This document shows positions 12,195-56,707 of a DNA stretch of 64,000 nt, piece by piece. Below the pieces are notes generated by a model. The model saw only the letters and a list, made by a program, of their open reading frames with translations. It was not told where the DNA came from and searched no databases. Every line of letters begins with the position of its first letter. Position 1 is the stretch's first letter. Location: sequence record OV754623; one strand, 5' to 3'. Made by a program: the position numbers and the translations under genes. Source of the stretch: Escherichia phage UGJNEcP1.

Positions 12195-12503
12195 TCAATT
12201 AGAAAATAAATTTATCCAAGATTTTTCTTTAATCAAAAATGGGTCGGAATTAAACGCCATTAAACTTTGAGTGATTAATCCTTTAAATGGCCCATCAATA
12301 AATTCCATTTTGAAATGTGGAATACTAGTCATCAACCGTGCATTAGGAGCAGTACAAAGAACCTGCTGCCCTGCAAACGGTCCTTTAGTCAAACGATAAC
12401 GTTTAGGTTTAAAATGATAAATCTCGTAATTTTCTACAAGAGCCCTTTTATTGCATACTGGGCTGTTATAACAATACTCAAAAACTTCAATAGTGGTCAT
12501 CAT
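12195..12503 (-). CDS. hypothetical protein (~102 aa)
   Basis: ATG overlapping upstream stop (ATGATGA at 12497-12503). Confidence 0.45.
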   Translation of the reverse strand: MMTTIEVFEYCYNSPVCNKRALVENYEIYHFKPKRYRLTKGPFAGQQVLCTAPNARLMTSIPHFKMEFIDGPFKGLITQSLMAFNSDPFLIKEKSWINLFSN

Positions 12504-13039
12504 TGCATTCCAATCACAAAAAATTGAGGACGAGCAATACCACCGATGCAATATTTGCTTTTGCAACAGTGTTGGACTGTTTTAATATGGATGTCGTAAA
12601 TCTTATCCATATCAGGAGCTTTAATAGGCTCGTCAATTATGTACAGAATACGAGAAAGCGTTAATCCACGGAATTTATGTCCTTCATTACCAATAAAACT
12701 ACGGACAGAATCAGTAAATAAACGGAATCTAATATCATCGCTAGAATAACGAGAAAATTCTTTTTTAATGTTGCCAACAGAAATTTTAGCATAAGCTGAA
12801 GTATTAGAAAGAACAATAACTGTTCCACCATCATACAGCCAATTAACAGCAAAATTAGTTACTGCGGTCGATTTACCAGATTGCCTGCCGCCGTCTAAAC
12901 GAAGTGTACAGTACTGCTTGAGTACGTCTTCAAATGGTGGGGCATAACCGTTCTTACAAATTTCTTCTACTCTAGCATCAGAATGGTGTGTAAAAGCATT
13001 CATCAGGGATAGATAAGGTCCGGTTAAAAATGTTCTCAT
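12500..13039 (-). CDS. small P-loop NTPase (Walker A GGRQSGKST, Walker B ILYIIDEP)
   Basis: Motifs read from translation; preceded by an unusual GC-rich ~170-nt leader. Confidence 0.55.
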   Translation of the reverse strand: MRTFLTGPYLSLMNAFTHHSDARVEEICKNGYAPPFEDVLKQYCTLRLDGGRQSGKSTAVTNFAVNWLYDGGTVIVLSNTSAYAKISVGNIKKEFSRYSSDDIRFRLFTDSVRSFIGNEGHKFRGLTLSRILYIIDEPIKAPDMDKIYDIHIKTVQHCCKSKYCIGGIARPQFFVIGMQ

Positions 13040-13212: not shown

Positions 13213-13542
13213 TTATACTCTAGGCTTTTGAGCTTGTTTGGTATTGGATTCCCATGCAGCTTTGGTAATTTTGTTAGCGGCATAACCAAAGGCACTAGAT
13301 AGAACACCTTTAGAGTTGAATACATCCAATCCAATAAGTACACCGGCTGTGTTAAATTTAGGAGCAAAGTACGCATTAGTTTTAGAAAGAGCTTTTTTCA
13401 ATTCAGGGTCTTGAACCAAACCATCAAAAACGCCTTTACTATTTACTTTATATGTTACTTTGGGATTTTTACCTTCTTCGATAGCAGCTTTCTGTTCCGC
13501 AGATAATGTAACTTCAGTGATAAACTCTTGATACGTTTTCAT
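13213..13542 (-). CDS. internal-protein-like (capsid-targeting leader MKTYQEFITE)
   Basis: N-terminus matches the T4 internal-protein capsid targeting sequence ending in the prohead-protease site I/L-x-E. Confidence 0.7.
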   Translation of the reverse strand: MKTYQEFITEVTLSAEQKAAIEEGKNPKVTYKVNSKGVFDGLVQDPELKKALSKTNAYFAPKFNTAGVLIGLDVFNSKGVLSSAFGYAANKITKAAWESNTKQAQKPRV

Positions 13543-13567
13543 TTTGTTCCTATTGTTTTAATTTATG

Positions 13568-13882
13568 TTATTCTTTAGGGAAGTTTTTAGAGTATGCATC
13601 ATAAAGTTTATTACCGATGCGACGGAAGACTTTAGCTGCAAAACGGTTTTCAGGGTTTTTAATCATGATTTGCATCATGTAAGTTCCTGCATCCGAAAGA
13701 GCTTCTTCATAGTACCCATTAATTTCTTTAAGGGTCCTACGTTTACCGCCAGGACCATCAACAGTAATTTTCCATTTACCTGTAGAAGTGCGGCTCGGTG
13801 GCTCAACTTGTTCAATCCAAATATAACCGCCTTCAACGCGTTGGTTGGCGGATTCTGCAATAAATTCTTTATACGTTTTCAT
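13568..13882 (-). CDS. internal-protein-like (capsid-targeting leader MKTYKEFIAE)
   Basis: Same N-terminal leader; promoter 13912-13941 upstream. Confidence 0.7.
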   Translation of the reverse strand: MKTYKEFIAESANQRVEGGYIWIEQVEPPSRTSTGKWKITVDGPGGKRRTLKEINGYYEEALSDAGTYMMQIMIKNPENRFAAKVFRRIGNKLYDAYSKNFPKE

Positions 13883-13911
13883 TTTTGTTTCCTTGTTTTT
13901 TTGATAGAGTA

Positions 13912-13941
13912 ATTATACCATATTAATACTTAAGCGTAAAC
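13912..13941 (-). promoter_or_regulatory. early promoter GTTTAC-18-TATAAT
   Basis: Consensus hexamers upstream of internal-protein-like gene. Confidence 0.6.
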
Positions 13942-13944
13942 AAT

Positions 13945-14061
13945 TTAAGCTTTACCGCCAGAAATAATTCCGAAGTTGTTAAAATCGTATCCAATATCGT
14001 CAACATCTACTTTAGGACCTTTGGCATCTGCTTCAATGATAAATTCTTGATACATTTTCAT
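13945..14061 (-). CDS. mini internal-protein-like peptide (38 aa; leader MKMYQEFIIE)
   Basis: ATG with AAGGAAAA Shine-Dalgarno; leader followed by 28-aa Gly-rich tail. Confidence 0.45.
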   Translation of the reverse strand: MKMYQEFIIEADAKGPKVDVDDIGYDFNNFGIISGGKA

Positions 14062-14067
14062 TTTTCC

Positions 14068-14481
14068 TTAGTAAATTGATTTACCATAGTATTTGTACCA
14101 AGTCGGACGTTGAGCAATTTTTTCATCTAAGCGTGCTTGACTTATCGCAATGGACGCTTCGGACGGGACATAATTATTACGAAATTCGGCAGGGATGTCG
14201 GAAATATCCTGGACTGTCGTGTCCTTGATTTTGAAACCACGTTTCAAACATTCAGCGATTAGCTCGATTTGTCGTAAACGTAAAAATTCGAGTTTGTCGT
14301 AAAAGAATGTTACGTGACCTGTGCCTAAGATAAATGTTGGAGAGATTTTAAAATCCTTTACACGTTTACCGTTTTGAACATGTTTACGGACTGCACCGAA
14401 TACACGAGGTAATTCACGATACTCAGCCATAAGATGTTGGTCGGTCAGTTCAGAAACAAGTGTTAAATTGATACGGGTCAT
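14068..14481 (-). CDS. denV: endonuclease V (pyrimidine-dimer DNA glycosylase)
   Basis: [12 protein letters not shown]...[17 protein letters not shown]...PTWYKYYGK closely matches T4 DenV as recalled. Confidence 0.9.
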
Positions 14482-14500
14482 AATTTCCTCCAAGTAGTTG

Positions 14501-14538
14501 ATGAATGTATAGTATCAAAACCCTTGGAGGAAGTAAAC
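14501..14538 (-). promoter_or_regulatory. PeSL-type early promoter upstream of denV with SD-complementary spacer
   Basis: CTTGGAGG at 14524-14531 complementary to the denV Shine-Dalgarno region CCTCCAAG at 14488-14495. Confidence 0.6.
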
Positions 14539-14539
14539 A

Positions 14540-14836
14540 CTATTTTTCTGAAGCGCCTGAAATATATTTTTCAAGACGTTGTTTCATCAGCGAACCGTTC
14601 TTAGCGATTTCTTCCGGTTTATCGCACATACGTAACAAGGCTTCAAGCTTAGCGATATCGCTGGTACGTTCAAATTTGCGAGTATCTATCTTACTAGCAA
14701 GTTCAGAAATACGTGCTAATAGACTTTCAGCTTCAACCAAAGCTGCACCTAGCTTAGTCGCAAATGTGTCAGTAGCTTCGTTAAGAATAGATTCTGATAA
14801 AAATTCACTATATGTTTTCATATATACGCTTTCCAA
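14540..14836 (-). CDS. internal protein (IPII/IPIII position; leader [10 protein letters not shown])
   Basis: Capsid-targeting leader; located between denV and e where T4 has ipII/ipIII. Confidence 0.7.
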
Positions 14837-15306
14837 GTTCCTGTTTTAAATGTTGAGATTACGCGTTTCGCGCGATTAGGTGTCTGACGATACCATTTAG
14901 ATTGGGCTAGATTTACTGCCGCTTCATCCCAACGTTTCTGTTGAAGCATACGAAGAGAATTAGTAAAACCGGCTACGCCTGATACACCCATTTGGAAGAC
15001 CATATTGACCAATGCACACCGACGAACTGCATCTAAAGAATCGTATACCGGTTTAAGTTTAGCATTACCCAAGATTCCACGAACGGCTTTATCAACGTCT
15101 TCATTAAATAGCTTTTCAGCCTCATCAAGGGTAATTGTACCGTTGCATTTACGACCGATCATTCTGTCAAGTTCAGCTTTAGCTACGGCTAAAGACGGGT
15201 TCTTTGTTACCAAATGGCCTATGCCAATCGTCCAAAAGCCTTCAGTGTCTTTGTATAAAGTCAGTCTAAGACCTTCGTCATTACGAAGCATTTCAAATAT
15301 ATTCAT
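14818..15306 (-). CDS. e: lysozyme (endolysin), T4 e type
   Basis: MNIFEMLR...DEGLRL..YKDTEG..TIGIGHL...[13 protein letters not shown], 162 aa; start placed at MNIFEML. Confidence 0.95.
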
Positions 15307-25888: not shown

Positions 25889-26152
25889 TTAAATACCAGC
25901 TTCGCGTTTAACATAATCGACGTAAGCTTGGATAGCTTTCTTGCTGGTAATTTTTACCTGGCCACGTCCATTGCCTTCTTTAGAGTTTTTCTTAACAACT
26001 ACATTACCATCTTTAACACCCCATACATGGACGTAAGTACCGATGTTTCGGTCGTAGAACATTGCATGGTCGTTGTTGTAAGAGAATGATTCGTAGTTCT
26101 CTGTCAGAGTAGAAGATTGAGATTCGGCGATAAATTCTTTATAGGTTTTCAT
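25889..26152 (-). CDS. ipI: internal protein I-like (leader MKTYKEFIAE)
   Basis: Capsid-targeting leader; located next to 57B as ipI is in T4; promoter 26178-26216 upstream. Confidence 0.65.
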   Translation of the reverse strand: MKTYKEFIAESQSSTLTENYESFSYNNDHAMFYDRNIGTYVHVWGVKDGNVVVKKNSKEGNGRGQVKITSKKAIQAYVDYVKREAGI

Positions 26153-26177
26153 TTTATTTCCTTGAGGTTGTTTATTT

Positions 26178-26216
26178 GATAGGATGATAGTAACACACCA
26201 TCATCCTTATGTAAAC
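26178..26216 (-). promoter_or_regulatory. PeSL-type early promoter upstream of ipI-like gene
   Basis: Stem AGGATGAT/ATCATCCT flanking -10; GTTTAC -35. Confidence 0.6.
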
Positions 26217-26229
26217 TGTTTTGTGAAAA

Positions 26230-26915
<686 letters not shown>

Positions 26916-54795: not shown

Positions 54796-55220
54796 TGTAT
54801 CTTATCCCTGAATCTTATGAATTGGTACTCGAAAATGTCGAAGCACTTATTCCTGAAGCACAGGGCCGAATCGATGCATTGTCTTCTGCTCTCGATATTG
54901 ACGATATAAATACTATTATCGAGAACATGCTTGAAACTGAAACGGATTTAGCTGTTGCAATGGCTTCCATTATTAATGAAGAACAGTTAAATGAGTTTAT
55001 CGTTAAACATGTTTCTTCACGTGGTGAAGTCACCCGCACTAAAGACCGTAAAACTCGTGAACGTAACGCGTTCCAAACAACTGGTCTTTCTAAAGCAAAA
55101 CGTAGACAAATCGCTCGTAAGGTCGTTAAAGCTAAAAAAGCTAACCCTTCAGGCCAAGTTAAAGGCTTGCGTAAGCGTAAAAAGGCTCTTAAACGTCGTA
55201 AAGCATTAGGATTAAGCTAA
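54795..55220 (+). CDS. 68: prohead core protein gp68
   Basis: 141 aa, basic C-terminus. Confidence 0.85.
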
Positions 55221-55861
55221 TGAATAAACCCGAGTTACTTATTGAAACTTGGGGTCAACCCGGTGAGATTATTGATGGCGTTCCAATGTTGGAATCTCAT
55301 GATGGAAAAGATTCTGGCTTAAAACCAGGGCTTTATATAGAAGGTATTTTTCTTCAGGCAGAGGTTGTTAACCGAAATAAACGTTTATATCCTAAACGCG
55401 TTTTGGAAAAAGCAGTAAGTGACTATATTAAAGAACAAGTCGCAACCAAACAAGCCCTTGGAGAATTAAACCATCCACCTCGTGCAAATGTTGACCCTAT
55501 GCAAGCCGCTATCATTATTGAAGATATGTGGTGGAAAGGAAACGATGTATATGGACGTGCTAGAATTATTGAAGGCGACCATGGTCCCGGCGATAAATTA
55601 GCTGCTAATATACGAGCTGGTTGGATTCCAGGTGTTTCCTCTCGTGGTCTTGGTTCTTTAACCGACACCAATAAAGGGTACCGTATCGTGAACGAAGGAT
55701 TTAAATTAACCGTCGGCGTAGATGCCGTATGGGGACCTTCTGCTCCAGATGCTTGGGTTACTCCTAAACAAATATCAGAATCAGAAAATTCGGTGGAAAC
55801 CACCAAAAACAGTGCTGATGAAGCATTTAAAGCTCTCGCAGAGAGTTTAAAAGCATTATAA
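55220..55861 (+). CDS. 21: prohead core scaffold and protease gp21
   Basis: 213 aa; order. Confidence 0.9.
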   Translation: MNKPELLIETWGQPGEIIDGVPMLESHDGKDSGLKPGLYIEGIFLQAEVVNRNKRLYPKRVLEKAVSDYIKEQVATKQALGELNHPPRANVDPMQAAIIIEDMWWKGNDVYGRARIIEGDHGPGDKLAANIRAGWIPGVSSRGLGSLTDTNKGYRIVNEGFKLTVGVDAVWGPSAPDAWVTPKQISESENSVETTKNSADEAFKALAESLKAL

Positions 55862-55864
55862 ATA
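55857..55864 (+). promoter_or_regulatory. late promoter TATAAATA (gene 22)
   Basis: Exact octamer overlapping gene 21 stop. Confidence 0.6.
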
Positions 55865-55894
55865 ATAATGTAATCTAAACCACAGGACACTAAA

Positions 55895-56707
55895 ATGATC
55901 AAAGAACAACTTTTGAAAGAAGCTCAGAACATCGAGACTTCAGTTGCTCTTAATAGTGTTTTCGAATCAGTAGAACTGTCTCCGGACGTTAAAGCTAATT
56001 TCAGCACTGTATTCGAAGCCACCGTTAAGCAGGAAGCAGTCAAACTGGCTGAATCTCATATCAAAGCCATCGCCGAAAAGGCCGAAGAAGAAGTTGAAAA
56101 GGCTAAAGAAGATGCTGAAGAGAAAGCTGATAAAAAATTGGCTGAACAAGCTTCTAAATTCCTAGACCATCTTGCAAAAGAATGGCTCGCAGAAAACCAA
56201 ATCGCAGTTGATAAAGGCATTAAAGCTGATTTGTTCGAATCCATGCTTGGTGGTCTGAAAGAACTGTTTGTTGAACATAACGTTGTTGTTCCAGAAGAAT
56301 CTGTAGATGTTGTAGCAGAAATGGAAGAAGAGCTGGCCGAACATAAAGAAGAAACCGCTCGTTTGTTCGAAGAAGTTACCAAACGTGATGCATATATCAA
56401 TTACGTTCAGCGTGAAACCGCTATTAATGAAAGCGTAAAAGACCTGACTGAATCTCAGAAAGAAAAAGTTATTGGCCTGGTTGAAGGTATGGATTATTCT
56501 GACGCATTTGGTACTAAGTTAACTGCTATTGTAGAAATGGTTAAAGGTTCTACTAAAGAAGAAGCCGCTATTACCGAAAGTATAAATACAGTTGACAATG
56601 ACGCTGCCGGTCTTAATTTTGTTGCCGAAGCAGTTGACACTACCACAACTCAGGTAGAACAGAATTCTAATGTAAGTTTATATGCGAAAGTCGCATCTCG
56701 TTTCTAA
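55895..56707 (+). CDS. 22: prohead core scaffold protein gp22
   Basis: 270-aa acidic coiled-coil protein; late promoter at 55857-55864. Confidence 0.9.
   Translation: MIKEQLLKEAQNIETSVALNSVFESVELSPDVKANFSTVFEATVKQEAVKLAESHIKAIAEKAEEEVEKAKEDAEEKADKKLAEQASKFLDHLAKEWLAENQIAVDKGIKADLFESMLGGLKELFVEHNVVVPEESVDVVAEMEEELAEHKEETARLFEEVTKRDAYINYVQRETAINESVKDLTESQKEKVIGLVEGMDYSDAFGTKLTAIVEMVKGSTKEEAAITESINTVDNDAAGLNFVAEAVDTTTTQVEQNSNVSLYAKVASRF

What the first reader, a model, noticed from the sequence alone, without database searches (positions are those of the whole stretch)
13213..14836. Expanded set of capsid-targeted internal-protein genes, including a 38-aa mini-IP
Four genes around denV (13213-13542, 13568-13882, 13945-14061, 14540-14836) all open with the M-K-T/M-Y-x-E-F-I/L-x-E leader that T4 uses to package internal proteins and that the prohead protease removes. 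T4 has three such genes as I recall, and its IPI is an injected inhibitor of a type IV restriction enzyme. Novel payloads behind the same leader are therefore candidate injected anti-defence proteins.
Basis: partly seen in the sequence, partly recalled or inferred. Interest (0 to 1): 0.8.

Follow-up and report, generated by a model that had tools for sequence, protein, structure and literature searches.

The report
T-even phage internal-protein gene cassettes
These are ordinary members of the long-known, highly variable set of small phage proteins that a 10-residue leader loads into the T4-type capsid for injection with the DNA, and the 38-residue "mini" gene is just an internally deleted copy of a common 86-residue one.

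Summary
The window is a Mosigvirus, an RB69-like T-even phage, 100% identical to Escherichia phage UGJNEcP2. Four minus-strand genes around denV open with M-K-T/M-Y-x-E-F-I/L-x-E. A fifth sits at the ipI locus (25889-26152). Five matches were found against 0.00 expected by chance. The same window encodes the gp21 prohead protease and the gp22 scaffold.

The set is not new.
- 14540-14821 is an Ip5 homologue.
- 13568-13882 is Ip10, named in 1994.
- 13213-13542 is RB69ORF123c.
- RB69, sequenced in 2003, has the same layout, and Dhakavirus WG01 also has four leader genes around denV.

The "mini-IP" is a 144-nt in-frame deletion between two GTCCTAAA repeats inside an 86-aa "internal head protein" gene. 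That gene is full length in 205 of 217 phage records. The deletion junction occurs in 9 records (7 phages). It removes four of the six modelled core elements.

None of the payloads resembles T4 IPI, IPII or IPIII. The idea that they are injected anti-defence proteins is plausible but already published. Ip1-3 each block a distinct GmrSD, while ip4-10 gave no reproducible inhibition.

Side finds: a leaderless homologue of the ipI-locus payload, and at least 53 payload families behind this leader.

The parts
14540..14821 (-). Ip5-family internal protein gene (93 aa; leader [10 protein letters not shown]). Its start overlaps the stop of gene e as ATGA. A second L-x-E site (LNE) ends at residue 15.
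   Evidence: Searches show the leader; phrog_3499 'internal head protein', E=2e-46; 90% identical to VR25 'ip5', 47-49% to T2/PP01-type Ip5, 496 phage records; cleavage-motif positions.
14068..14481 (-). denV (endonuclease V), the conserved anchor gene around which the IP cassettes sit
   Evidence: annotation and synteny with T4 e-ipIII-ipII-denV-vs.8.
13945..14061 (-). 38-aa 'mini-IP' (MKMYQEFIIE|ADAKGPKVDVDDIGYDFNNFGIISGGKA). It is an in-frame 144-nt deletion allele of an 86-aa RB69ORF125c-type internal head protein gene.
   Evidence: the APCEc01 orthologue is 86 aa counted from the MKM start (RefSeq annotates 255 nt from the second ATG) and named 'internal head protein'; phrog_35655 and phrog_2667; 205 of 217 records are full length; the junction occurs in 9 records; identical junction in JS09, PhAPEC2, pEK20 and phiEC1.
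14011..14018 (-). The single remaining GTCCTAAA copy, marking the deletion junction. Full-length alleles carry two copies 144 nt apart.
   Evidence: SSE1 carries the left copy (AAAGGTCCTAAATTT) and APCEc01 the right copy (GTAAGTCCTAAAGTA). One search gives the window sequence.
13912..13940 (-). T-even early-type promoter (GTTTACG, 17 nt, TG-TATAAT) directly upstream of Ip10, of the kind found in PeSL shuffling elements
   Evidence: 10 of 12 consensus matches with a TG extension; conserved in all deletion-allele phages. T-even PeSL promoter consensus TTTACW-N17-TAYWAT.
13568..13882 (-). Ip10 internal protein gene (104 aa; leader MKTYKEFIAE; mature pI about 9.6)
   Evidence: 96.8% identical to PP01 'Ip10 internal head protein', 189 records; the JS09 note cites CAA84455, Ip10 of phage Pol. 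RB69ORF124c is the same gene with a shifted C-terminus; pI.
13213..13542 (-). RB69ORF123c-family leader protein (109 aa; MKTYQEFITE; mature pI about 9.7). Annotated 'hypothetical' in almost all listed records and never as an internal protein.
   Evidence: 90 phage records, 99% identical to RB69ORF123c; a 33%-identical leader-bearing homologue, WG01 ORF115, at the same locus; only one other 50%-identity cluster among 1.84 billion representatives.
25889..26152 (-). Fifth leader gene, at the ipI locus downstream of 57B (87 aa; MKTYKEFIAE, second site LTE ending at residue 18). The payload has a leaderless homologue in Dhakavirus.
   Evidence: locus; 35 records, all 'hypothetical'; leaderless homologue.
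55220..55861 (+). gp21 prohead serine protease, the enzyme expected to remove the leaders
   Evidence: Peptidase_S77, E=2.8e-107.
55895..56707 (+). gp22 scaffold core protein, the assembly core to which the leader targets cargo
   Evidence: T4_CASP, E=1.5e-89.

Best explanation
The window comes from an RB69-like T-even phage (Mosigvirus). It carries the usual variable cassettes of internal-protein (IP) genes at the two classical loci: e-denV-vs.8, and downstream of 57B.

Proposed mechanism:
1. Each product begins with the 10-residue capsid-targeting sequence.
2. Tyr4 and Phe7 direct the protein to the gp22 scaffold core of the prohead.
3. The gp21 protease cuts after Glu10 of the I/L-x-E motif.
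4. The mature protein stays in the head and is injected with the DNA.
5. In the cell it most likely neutralises first-line host defences, as T4 Ip1, Ip2 and Ip3 each do for a distinct GmrSD-type type IV nuclease.

What is shown here: the leader, the cleavage motif, the presence of protease and scaffold genes, synteny with T4, and family identities (Ip5-like, Ip10, RB69ORF125c-type, RB69ORF123c-type, and an ipI-locus replacement). What is inferred: packaging, cleavage and injection (about 0.85 for the four full-length genes), and an anti-defence role (about 0.5).

The 38-aa gene is a decayed allele. Slippage or illegitimate recombination between two 8-nt GTCCTAAA repeats deleted 48 codons of an 86-aa IP gene. 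It kept the promoter context, ribosome-binding site, leader and last 23 residues, and lost most of the modelled fold.
For: - Leader: five matches against 0.00 expected. Tyr4, Phe7, I/L8 and Glu10 are present in all five. These are the residues that mutagenesis identified for targeting (4, 7) and processing (8, 10) (PMC9026906).
- Machinery: gp21 Peptidase_S77 and the gp22 scaffold are in the same window.
- Synteny with T4 ipIII/ipII and ipI.
- Family assignments: Ip5, Ip10, 'internal head protein' phrog_2667 for the mini gene's parent.
- The same layout occurs in RB69, and four leader genes flank denV in WG01.
- Cassette content differs between phages that share the mini allele.
- Deletion origin of the mini gene. 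The deleted part holds four of six modelled core elements (pLDDT 70). The same family shows another in-frame deletion, four frameshift truncations, a split gene and a denV fusion.
- Anti-defence precedent: Ip1, Ip2 and Ip3 each inhibit a different GmrSD (PMC12373910). IPIII without its leader still works in the cytoplasm (PMC9391042).
Against: - There are no virion proteomics or N-terminal data for any of these five proteins, so packaging and cleavage are inferred from sequence alone.
- ip4-10, which by name include Ip5 and Ip10, showed no reproducible inhibition of the GmrSD variants tested. A GmrSD target is therefore unproven for at least two of the genes.
- The payloads have no similarity to IPI, IPII or IPIII, to any PDB chain, or to Pfam or NCBIfam families.
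- The Ip5-like and 86-aa payloads are not basic (pI 6.3 and 5.2), unlike T4's IPs.
- No canonical late promoter TATAAATA lies immediately upstream of the IP genes. Only a one-mismatch octamer lies before gene e, so late expression relies on read-through.
- The mini ORF remains open in all five phages whose sequence was compared, so residual function cannot be excluded.
Confidence: 0.8

Rival explanations
1. The 38-aa gene is a genuine, selected mini-cargo. Its 28-residue acidic mature peptide would be packaged and have its own function, for example as a retained internal peptide or an injected decoy.
For: - The ORF, ribosome-binding site and leader are intact and nearly identical in the five phages compared (junction found in seven), which belong to at least two named Mosigvirus species (JS09 and PhAPEC2) and carry different downstream cassettes.
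- The deletion is in frame.
- T4 heads do retain small acidic peptides of 2.5 and 3.9 kDa derived from gp22 and gp67 (table).
- PHROGs holds a 38-residue family for it.
Against: - All copies share a single junction, so this is one event, present in 9 of 217 records.
- The deletion lies between 8-nt direct repeats, as expected for slippage.
- It removes strands 17-22, 38-41 and 59-62 and helix 27-35 of the parent model.
- The gene family is repeatedly broken in other ways.
- An in-frame outcome has a one-in-three chance.
- Too few substitutions exist to show purifying selection.
Confidence: 0.1
2. The leader proteins act mainly inside the head, in core assembly or head-shape fidelity, or as DNA counter-ions, and have no role after injection.
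For: - Three payloads are basic (pI 9.2-9.7), like T4's IPs, which bind DNA at low salt.
- IPIII mutants show head-assembly aberrations.
- ip4-10 gave no reproducible GmrSD inhibition.
Against: - A structural role does not explain unrelated payloads swapping at the same slot between close relatives or the patchy distribution of 35-496 records.
- IP genes are dispensable in T4, and all three with known functions are nuclease inhibitors.
- A payload homologue exists as a leaderless early gene. That makes sense only for a cytoplasmic function.
Confidence: 0.15
3. The shared 30 nt at the 5' ends is conserved as a recombination or translation-initiation module for cassette shuffling, and the encoded peptide is incidental rather than a targeting signal.
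For: - The leader is conserved at the DNA level, while upstream and downstream sequences are not.
- Early promoter elements of the PeSL type lie next to the cassettes.
- The literature proposes shuffling within the IP palette.
Against: - Synonymous variation within the leader preserves the peptide. ACG, ACA, ACC and ATG occur at codon 3, and CAA, AAA and AGT at codon 5.
- Across 147 unique leader ORFs, the peptide pattern is kept on at least 53 unrelated payload families.
- The 10 residues alone suffice to package foreign proteins.
- The two roles do not exclude each other.
Confidence: 0.05

Closest known systems
[quoted passage not shown]
   Same: Same 10-residue capsid-targeting leader with an I/L-x-E cleavage site. 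Same two loci (e-denV-vs.8, and downstream of 57B). Similar size, with three of five payloads basic. The same protease and scaffold partners are encoded nearby.
   Different: There is no detectable payload similarity once the leader is removed. This phage has five genes rather than three, and three of them lie on the far side of denV.
Ip5 and Ip10 of the T-even 'IP palette' (Repoila et al. 1994, annotated in PP01, VR25, VR20 and JS09)
   Same: 13568-13882 is 96.8% identical to PP01 Ip10. 14540-14821 is 90% identical to VR25 ip5 and 47-49% identical to T2-type Ip5.
   Different: T2-type Ip5 sits at the ipI locus, whereas here the Ip5-like gene sits between e and denV. The function of either is still unknown. 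ip4-10 gave no reproducible GmrSD inhibition.
RB69 ORF123c-ORF127c cluster (RB69 genome, NC_004928)
   Same: Same gene order: e, Ip5-like, denV, 86-aa IP, Ip10, ORF123c, vs.8, at 97-99% identity.
   Different: RB69 keeps the 86-aa gene intact. Its Ip10 has a shifted C-terminus, and its Ip5-like leader reads MKTYMNFYQN. RB69 has a T4-like IPI at the ipI locus, where this phage has an unrelated 87-aa leader protein.
Engineered CTS fusions (Mullaney and Black 1996) and T4 Alt
   Same: The leader works as a portable tag. The ipI-locus protein equals a leaderless Dhakavirus protein plus a 14-residue insertion, TYKEFIAESQSSTL. Some metagenomic relatives fuse the leader to enzymes, in the way Alt is a packaged enzyme.
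   Different: These are natural fusions. Packaging of them has not been shown.

Membership tests
T4-type capsid-targeted internal proteins (CTS-bearing IPs) | N-terminal leader of about 10 residues resembling MKTYQEFIAE, with Tyr4 and Phe7 (targeting determinants) | tested here: met
   All five ORFs have it. The DNA pattern gives 5 matches against 0.00 expected.
T4-type capsid-targeted internal proteins (CTS-bearing IPs) | gp21 processing motif L/I-x-E ending at residue 10 (or a later site, as in IPI) | tested here: met
   The motifs are ITE, IAE, IIE, LSE and IAE at residues 8-10. Extra sites are LNE ending at residue 15 (Ip5-like) and LTE ending at residue 18 (ipI-locus protein).
T4-type capsid-targeted internal proteins (CTS-bearing IPs) | The phage encodes the gp21 prohead protease and the gp22 scaffold core | tested here: met
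   Peptidase_S77 E=2.8e-107 and T4_CASP E=1.5e-89, at 55220-56707.
T4-type capsid-targeted internal proteins (CTS-bearing IPs) | Location in the variable IP cassettes (e-denV-vs.8 and 57B-downstream loci) | tested here: met
   Synteny with T4, RB69, PP01 and WG01.
T4-type capsid-targeted internal proteins (CTS-bearing IPs) | Mature protein physically present in virions, with the leader removed | not testable with these tools
   This needs virion mass spectrometry or N-terminal sequencing. The literature searches found no proteome for these proteins.
T4-type capsid-targeted internal proteins (CTS-bearing IPs) | Injected into the host with the DNA | not testable with these tools
   Experimental only.
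GmrSD / type IV restriction inhibitors (IPI*, Ip2, Ip3) | Payload homologous to IPI, IPII or IPIII | tested here: not met
   No BLAST similarity after leader removal. No sequence match in the PDB for the four full-length payloads searched (the mini gene was not queried).
GmrSD / type IV restriction inhibitors (IPI*, Ip2, Ip3) | Inhibits a GmrSD-family nuclease | not testable with these tools
   In the literature, ip4-10 showed no reproducible inhibition of the GmrSD groups tested. The ORF123c-type and ipI-locus proteins have never been tested.
Independent 'mini' internal protein (a distinct short cargo gene) | The short form is not derived by truncation or deletion of a longer gene | tested here: not met
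   It aligns end to end with the 86-aa gene apart from a 144-nt gap flanked by GTCCTAAA repeats. The full-length form is in 205 of 217 records and the junction in 9.

The most novel reading that the evidence does not exclude
The two leader proteins that are not annotated as internal proteins (13213-13542, RB69ORF123c family; 25889-26152, the ipI-locus replacement) could be injected inhibitors of defence systems other than the GmrSD variants already mapped. One possibility is nucleases that see the arabinosyl-hmC DNA of Mosigviruses. The leaderless Dhakavirus homologue of the second protein would then show the same inhibitor delivered either pre-packaged or from an early promoter. Less likely, the 28-residue product of the mini gene is itself a functional packaged peptide.
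Probability: 0.2. Interest if true: 0.55.

Novelty: already known. Interest (0 to 1): 0.22.

Why it matters
As a class, injected internal proteins are a proven source of anti-restriction factors, so each uncharacterised payload is a reasonable candidate for a defence-inhibitor screen. This analysis adds annotation, not discovery:
- Two 'hypothetical' families, RB69ORF123c-type and the 87-aa ipI-locus protein, carry the capsid-targeting leader.
- The 38-aa ORF should be treated as a decayed allele.
- One payload exists naturally both with and without the leader.
- Even a truncated database sample shows more than 50 unrelated payload families behind this leader, some of them enzymes. The published count is about ten.

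Tried and rejected
- Pfam and NCBIfam gave nothing above the curated cut-offs for any of the five proteins.
- PDB sequence searches on the four full-length proteins gave only chance-level hits.
- The word-indexed homologue searches returned only near-identical clusters for 13213-13542 and 25889-26152.
- The exhaustive HMMER search for 13213-13542 found one real relative cluster. The other nine hits were mostly very long, multi-stretch proteins that I judge spurious.
- AlphaFold of the ipI-locus protein gave pLDDT 52.6 and was discarded.
- The 86-aa parent model (pLDDT 70 for the best model, at most 54 for the others) had no PDB fold match at E<=0.001. In BFVD it matched only its own family and a Morganella phage protein. 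It gives no functional clue and is used only to show which elements the deletion removes.
- phrog_3966 groups Ip10 with the ORF123c-type protein, but without the leader they share no BLAST similarity. I treat them as unrelated payloads.
- No canonical late promoter TATAAATA lies next to the IP genes.
- One literature search on 'Ip7/Ip8/Ip9/Ip10' returned only irrelevant papers.
- Repoila 1994 is not held in the library, so it is cited only through papers that cite it.
Full report
**What the window is.** The 2.4 kb around the finding is 100% identical to Escherichia phage UGJNEcP2. It is 97.6-98.8% identical to the other listed Mosigvirus phages, the RB69/JS09 group of T-even phages. All genes discussed here are on the minus strand. 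The order is: e lysozyme (14818-15306), ORF 14540-14821, denV (14068-14481), ORF 13945-14061, ORF 13568-13882, ORF 13213-13542, then a vs.8 homologue (12500-13039). T4 has e-ipIII-ipII-denV-vs.8 at the same place.

**Checking the observation.**
- The four ORFs begin [30 protein letters not shown] and MKTYQEFITE.
- The fourth gene starts at the ATG at 14821, which overlaps the stop of e as ATGA, not at 14836.
- A six-frame scan found a fifth ORF with the leader at 25889-26152 (MKTYKEFIAE). It lies just downstream of 57B, 57A and gene 1, which is the T4 ipI locus.
- The degenerate DNA pattern for the leader occurs five times, against 0.00 expected in 100 shuffles.
- It does not occur in the other 113 kb of the identical genome. 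The phage therefore has five leader genes.
- Only about 30 nt at the 5' end are conserved between the five genes. Sequences upstream and downstream are unrelated.

**Is it the T4 capsid-targeting sequence?**
- Published mutagenesis shows that the first 10 residues of IPIII suffice for packaging. Residues 4 and 7 carry targeting, residues 8 and 10 carry processing, and gp21 cuts after L/I-x-E (PMC9026906).
- All five ORFs have Tyr4, Phe7, I/L8 and Glu10.
- Two have a second site a few residues on: LNE ending at 15 in the Ip5-like protein and LTE ending at 18 in the ipI-locus protein. This recalls the 19-residue IPI propeptide.
- The window also encodes the gp21 protease (Peptidase_S77, E=2.8e-107), the gp22 scaffold, gp23 and the gp20 portal.
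- Packaging, cleavage and injection remain inferences. I found no virion proteome covering these proteins.

**What each payload is.** After removing the leader, none of the five resembles another, or T4 IPI, IPII or IPIII. They are nevertheless not new.
- 14540-14821 hits phrog_3499 'internal head protein'. It is 90% identical to the gene annotated ip5 in VR25 and 47-49% identical to the T2/PP01-type Ip5. It occurs in 496 phage records.
- 13568-13882 is 96.8% identical to 'Ip10 internal head protein' of PP01. The JS09 record links it to CAA84455, Ip10 of phage Pol. It occurs in 189 records, down to 48% identity in Enterobacter phages.
- 13213-13542 is RB69ORF123c (99% identical). It is found in 90 records and is labelled 'hypothetical protein' or left unannotated in almost all listed rows, never as an internal protein. 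A 33%-identical homologue that also carries the leader sits at the same locus in Dhakavirus WG01. An exhaustive search of 1.84 billion representatives found only that one other cluster.
- 25889-26152 occurs in only 35 records, all 'hypothetical'. RB69 has a T4-like IPI at this locus.

**The 'expansion' is ordinary.**
- RB69, sequenced in 2003, has the same five-gene layout around denV.
- WG01 has four leader genes flanking denV, including an IPIII homologue.
- PP01 has Ip10 and IpIV.
- Among phages that share the mini allele, the downstream slot holds different cargo: Ip10 plus ORF123c in the window, Ip10 plus an IpII-like gene and a denV fragment in JS09 and pEK20, and an IpIII-like gene in PhAPEC2.
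- This is the 'IP palette' shuffling described by Repoila et al. 1994 and discussed by Comeau, Arbiol and Krisch. Their T-even PeSL promoter consensus, TTTACW-N17-TAYWAT, matches the elements upstream of Ip10, denV and the ipI-locus gene.

**The mini-IP.**
- In APCEc01 the orthologous gene encodes 86 aa and RefSeq names it 'internal head protein'.
- The window gene aligns with it end to end except for a 144-nt gap of 48 codons, which is in frame.
- Full-length alleles carry GTCCTAAA at both edges of the missing segment. SSE1 shows the left copy and APCEc01 the right copy. The window retains one copy, at 14011-14018. This is the signature of slippage between short direct repeats.
- A junction-spanning 44-mer is present in full in 9 records. 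They represent 7 phages: UGJNEcP2, 172859UKE1, PhAPEC2, phiEC1, MRostami-2023e, JS09 and pEK20.
- The full-length form is found in 205 of 217 records.
- The five deletion alleles aligned share the same junction and differ by three substitutions within the ORF. This points to one event that then spread.
- An AlphaFold model of the parent is moderate in quality: pLDDT 70 and pTM 0.62 for the best model, at most 54 for the others. It gives a beta-alpha-beta-beta-alpha-beta arrangement after the leader helix. The deletion removes strands 17-22, 38-41 and 59-62 and helix 27-35, leaving one helix and one strand.
- The family is often broken in other ways: a second in-frame deletion, four frameshift truncations, a split gene and a denV::IP fusion.
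- The mini ORF probably still makes a 38-residue precursor that is targeted and trimmed to a 28-residue acidic peptide of 2.9 kDa. T4 heads do retain peptides of 2.5-3.9 kDa. A selected function seems unlikely, at about 0.1.

**Function.**
Ip1, Ip2 and Ip3 of T4 each inhibit a different GmrSD-type nuclease without cross-protection (PMC12373910).
- IPIII lacking its leader still rescues infection when expressed in the host (PMC9391042).
- ip4-10 from T4-like phages were tested against further GmrSD groups and gave no reproducible inhibition.
- Mosigviruses carry arabinosyl-hmC DNA. This genome carries a KpsF arabinose-5-phosphate isomerase gene next to the DNA polymerase. Their IPs may therefore face a different set of modification-dependent nucleases. 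That is speculation.
- No sequence or structure search gave a functional clue.

**Things found along the way.**
- The payload of 25889-26152 has a 73-aa homologue in Dhakavirus IME341, IME08 and AnYang that lacks the leader (66-68% identical). The window protein equals that protein plus a 14-residue insertion, TYKEFIAESQSSTL, after Met-Lys.
- The leaderless gene lies between gene 52 and motA. It sits behind a terminator hairpin and an early promoter, and an in-frame stop lies upstream of its start. This is a natural case of the same cargo with and without the tag.
Together with the fetched loci it gave 182 leader ORFs, 147 of them unique, of 35-610 aa. After leader removal they fall into 53 payload families.
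- A few of those payloads are enzymes. A GNAT acetyltransferase and a cytidylyltransferase-like protein score above the Pfam cut-offs. A nucleotidyltransferase/HEPN-like protein and a zincin-like protein score below them.
- Three of the 14 metagenomic loci checked, including the GNAT locus, have T4-like neighbouring genes.

**Verdict.** Interest is low. The useful output is corrected annotation and a short list of untested candidate cargo proteins.

Noticed in passing
window 25889-26152 (-); L016:2495-2716 (+): The ipI-locus leader protein has a leaderless 73-aa homologue (P0004, 66-68% identical) in Dhakavirus IME341, IME08 and AnYang. That gene lies between gene 52 and motA, behind a terminator hairpin and an early promoter. 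The window protein equals it plus a 14-residue insertion carrying the capsid-targeting sequence.
   Followed up: partly
IMG/VR loci L017-L136, e.g. L086:1058-1438 (-), L094:4706-5263 (-), L084:1191-2063 (+), L120:13808-14218 (+): A truncated scan for the leader DNA pattern gave 147 unique leader ORFs in 53 unrelated payload families (35-610 aa), well above the roughly 10 Ips cited in the literature. Some payloads are enzymes: a GNAT acetyltransferase and a cytidylyltransferase-like protein above the Pfam cut-offs, and a Polbeta NTase/HEPN-like protein and a zincin-like protein below them.
   Followed up: partly
homologues of window 13945-14061 (P0008, P0009, P0011-P0014, P0016): The 86-aa RB69ORF125c-type IP gene is repeatedly damaged in public sequences. 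There is a second in-frame deletion (65 aa), four frameshift truncations, a split gene in UFV13, and a deletion that fuses the denV N-terminus to the IP C-terminus.
   Followed up: partly
L006:1046-1327 (RB69p127), compared with window 14540-14821: RB69's copy of the Ip5-like gene reads MKTYMNFYQNLSLNE where the window has [15 protein letters not shown]. This looks like a compensated frameshift across the leader, or an old sequencing error. It keeps Tyr4, Phe7 and the LNE site but loses Glu10.
   Followed up: no
L008:2052-2189 (JS09_060) and L010:2061-2159: JS09 and pEK20 carry a short denV fragment downstream of an IpII-like gene, in addition to their intact denV. It looks like a scar from importing a T4-order ipII-denV cassette.
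   Followed up: no
window 26153-26232 (-) and 13912-13940 (-); window 14482-14540 (-): T-even early-type promoters (GTTTAC, 17 nt, TATAAT or TACTAT) sit directly upstream of Ip10, denV and the ipI-locus gene. The last one overlaps an inverted repeat, GGATGAT...ATCATCC. They resemble the PeSL elements proposed to mediate cassette shuffling.
   Followed up: partly
OV877511 record 89184-92075 (L014:39285-42176), outside the window: The identical phage genome carries KpsF arabinose-5-phosphate isomerase and phosphoheptose isomerase genes next to the DNA polymerase. This fits arabinosyl-hmC DNA, as in RB69.
   Followed up: no
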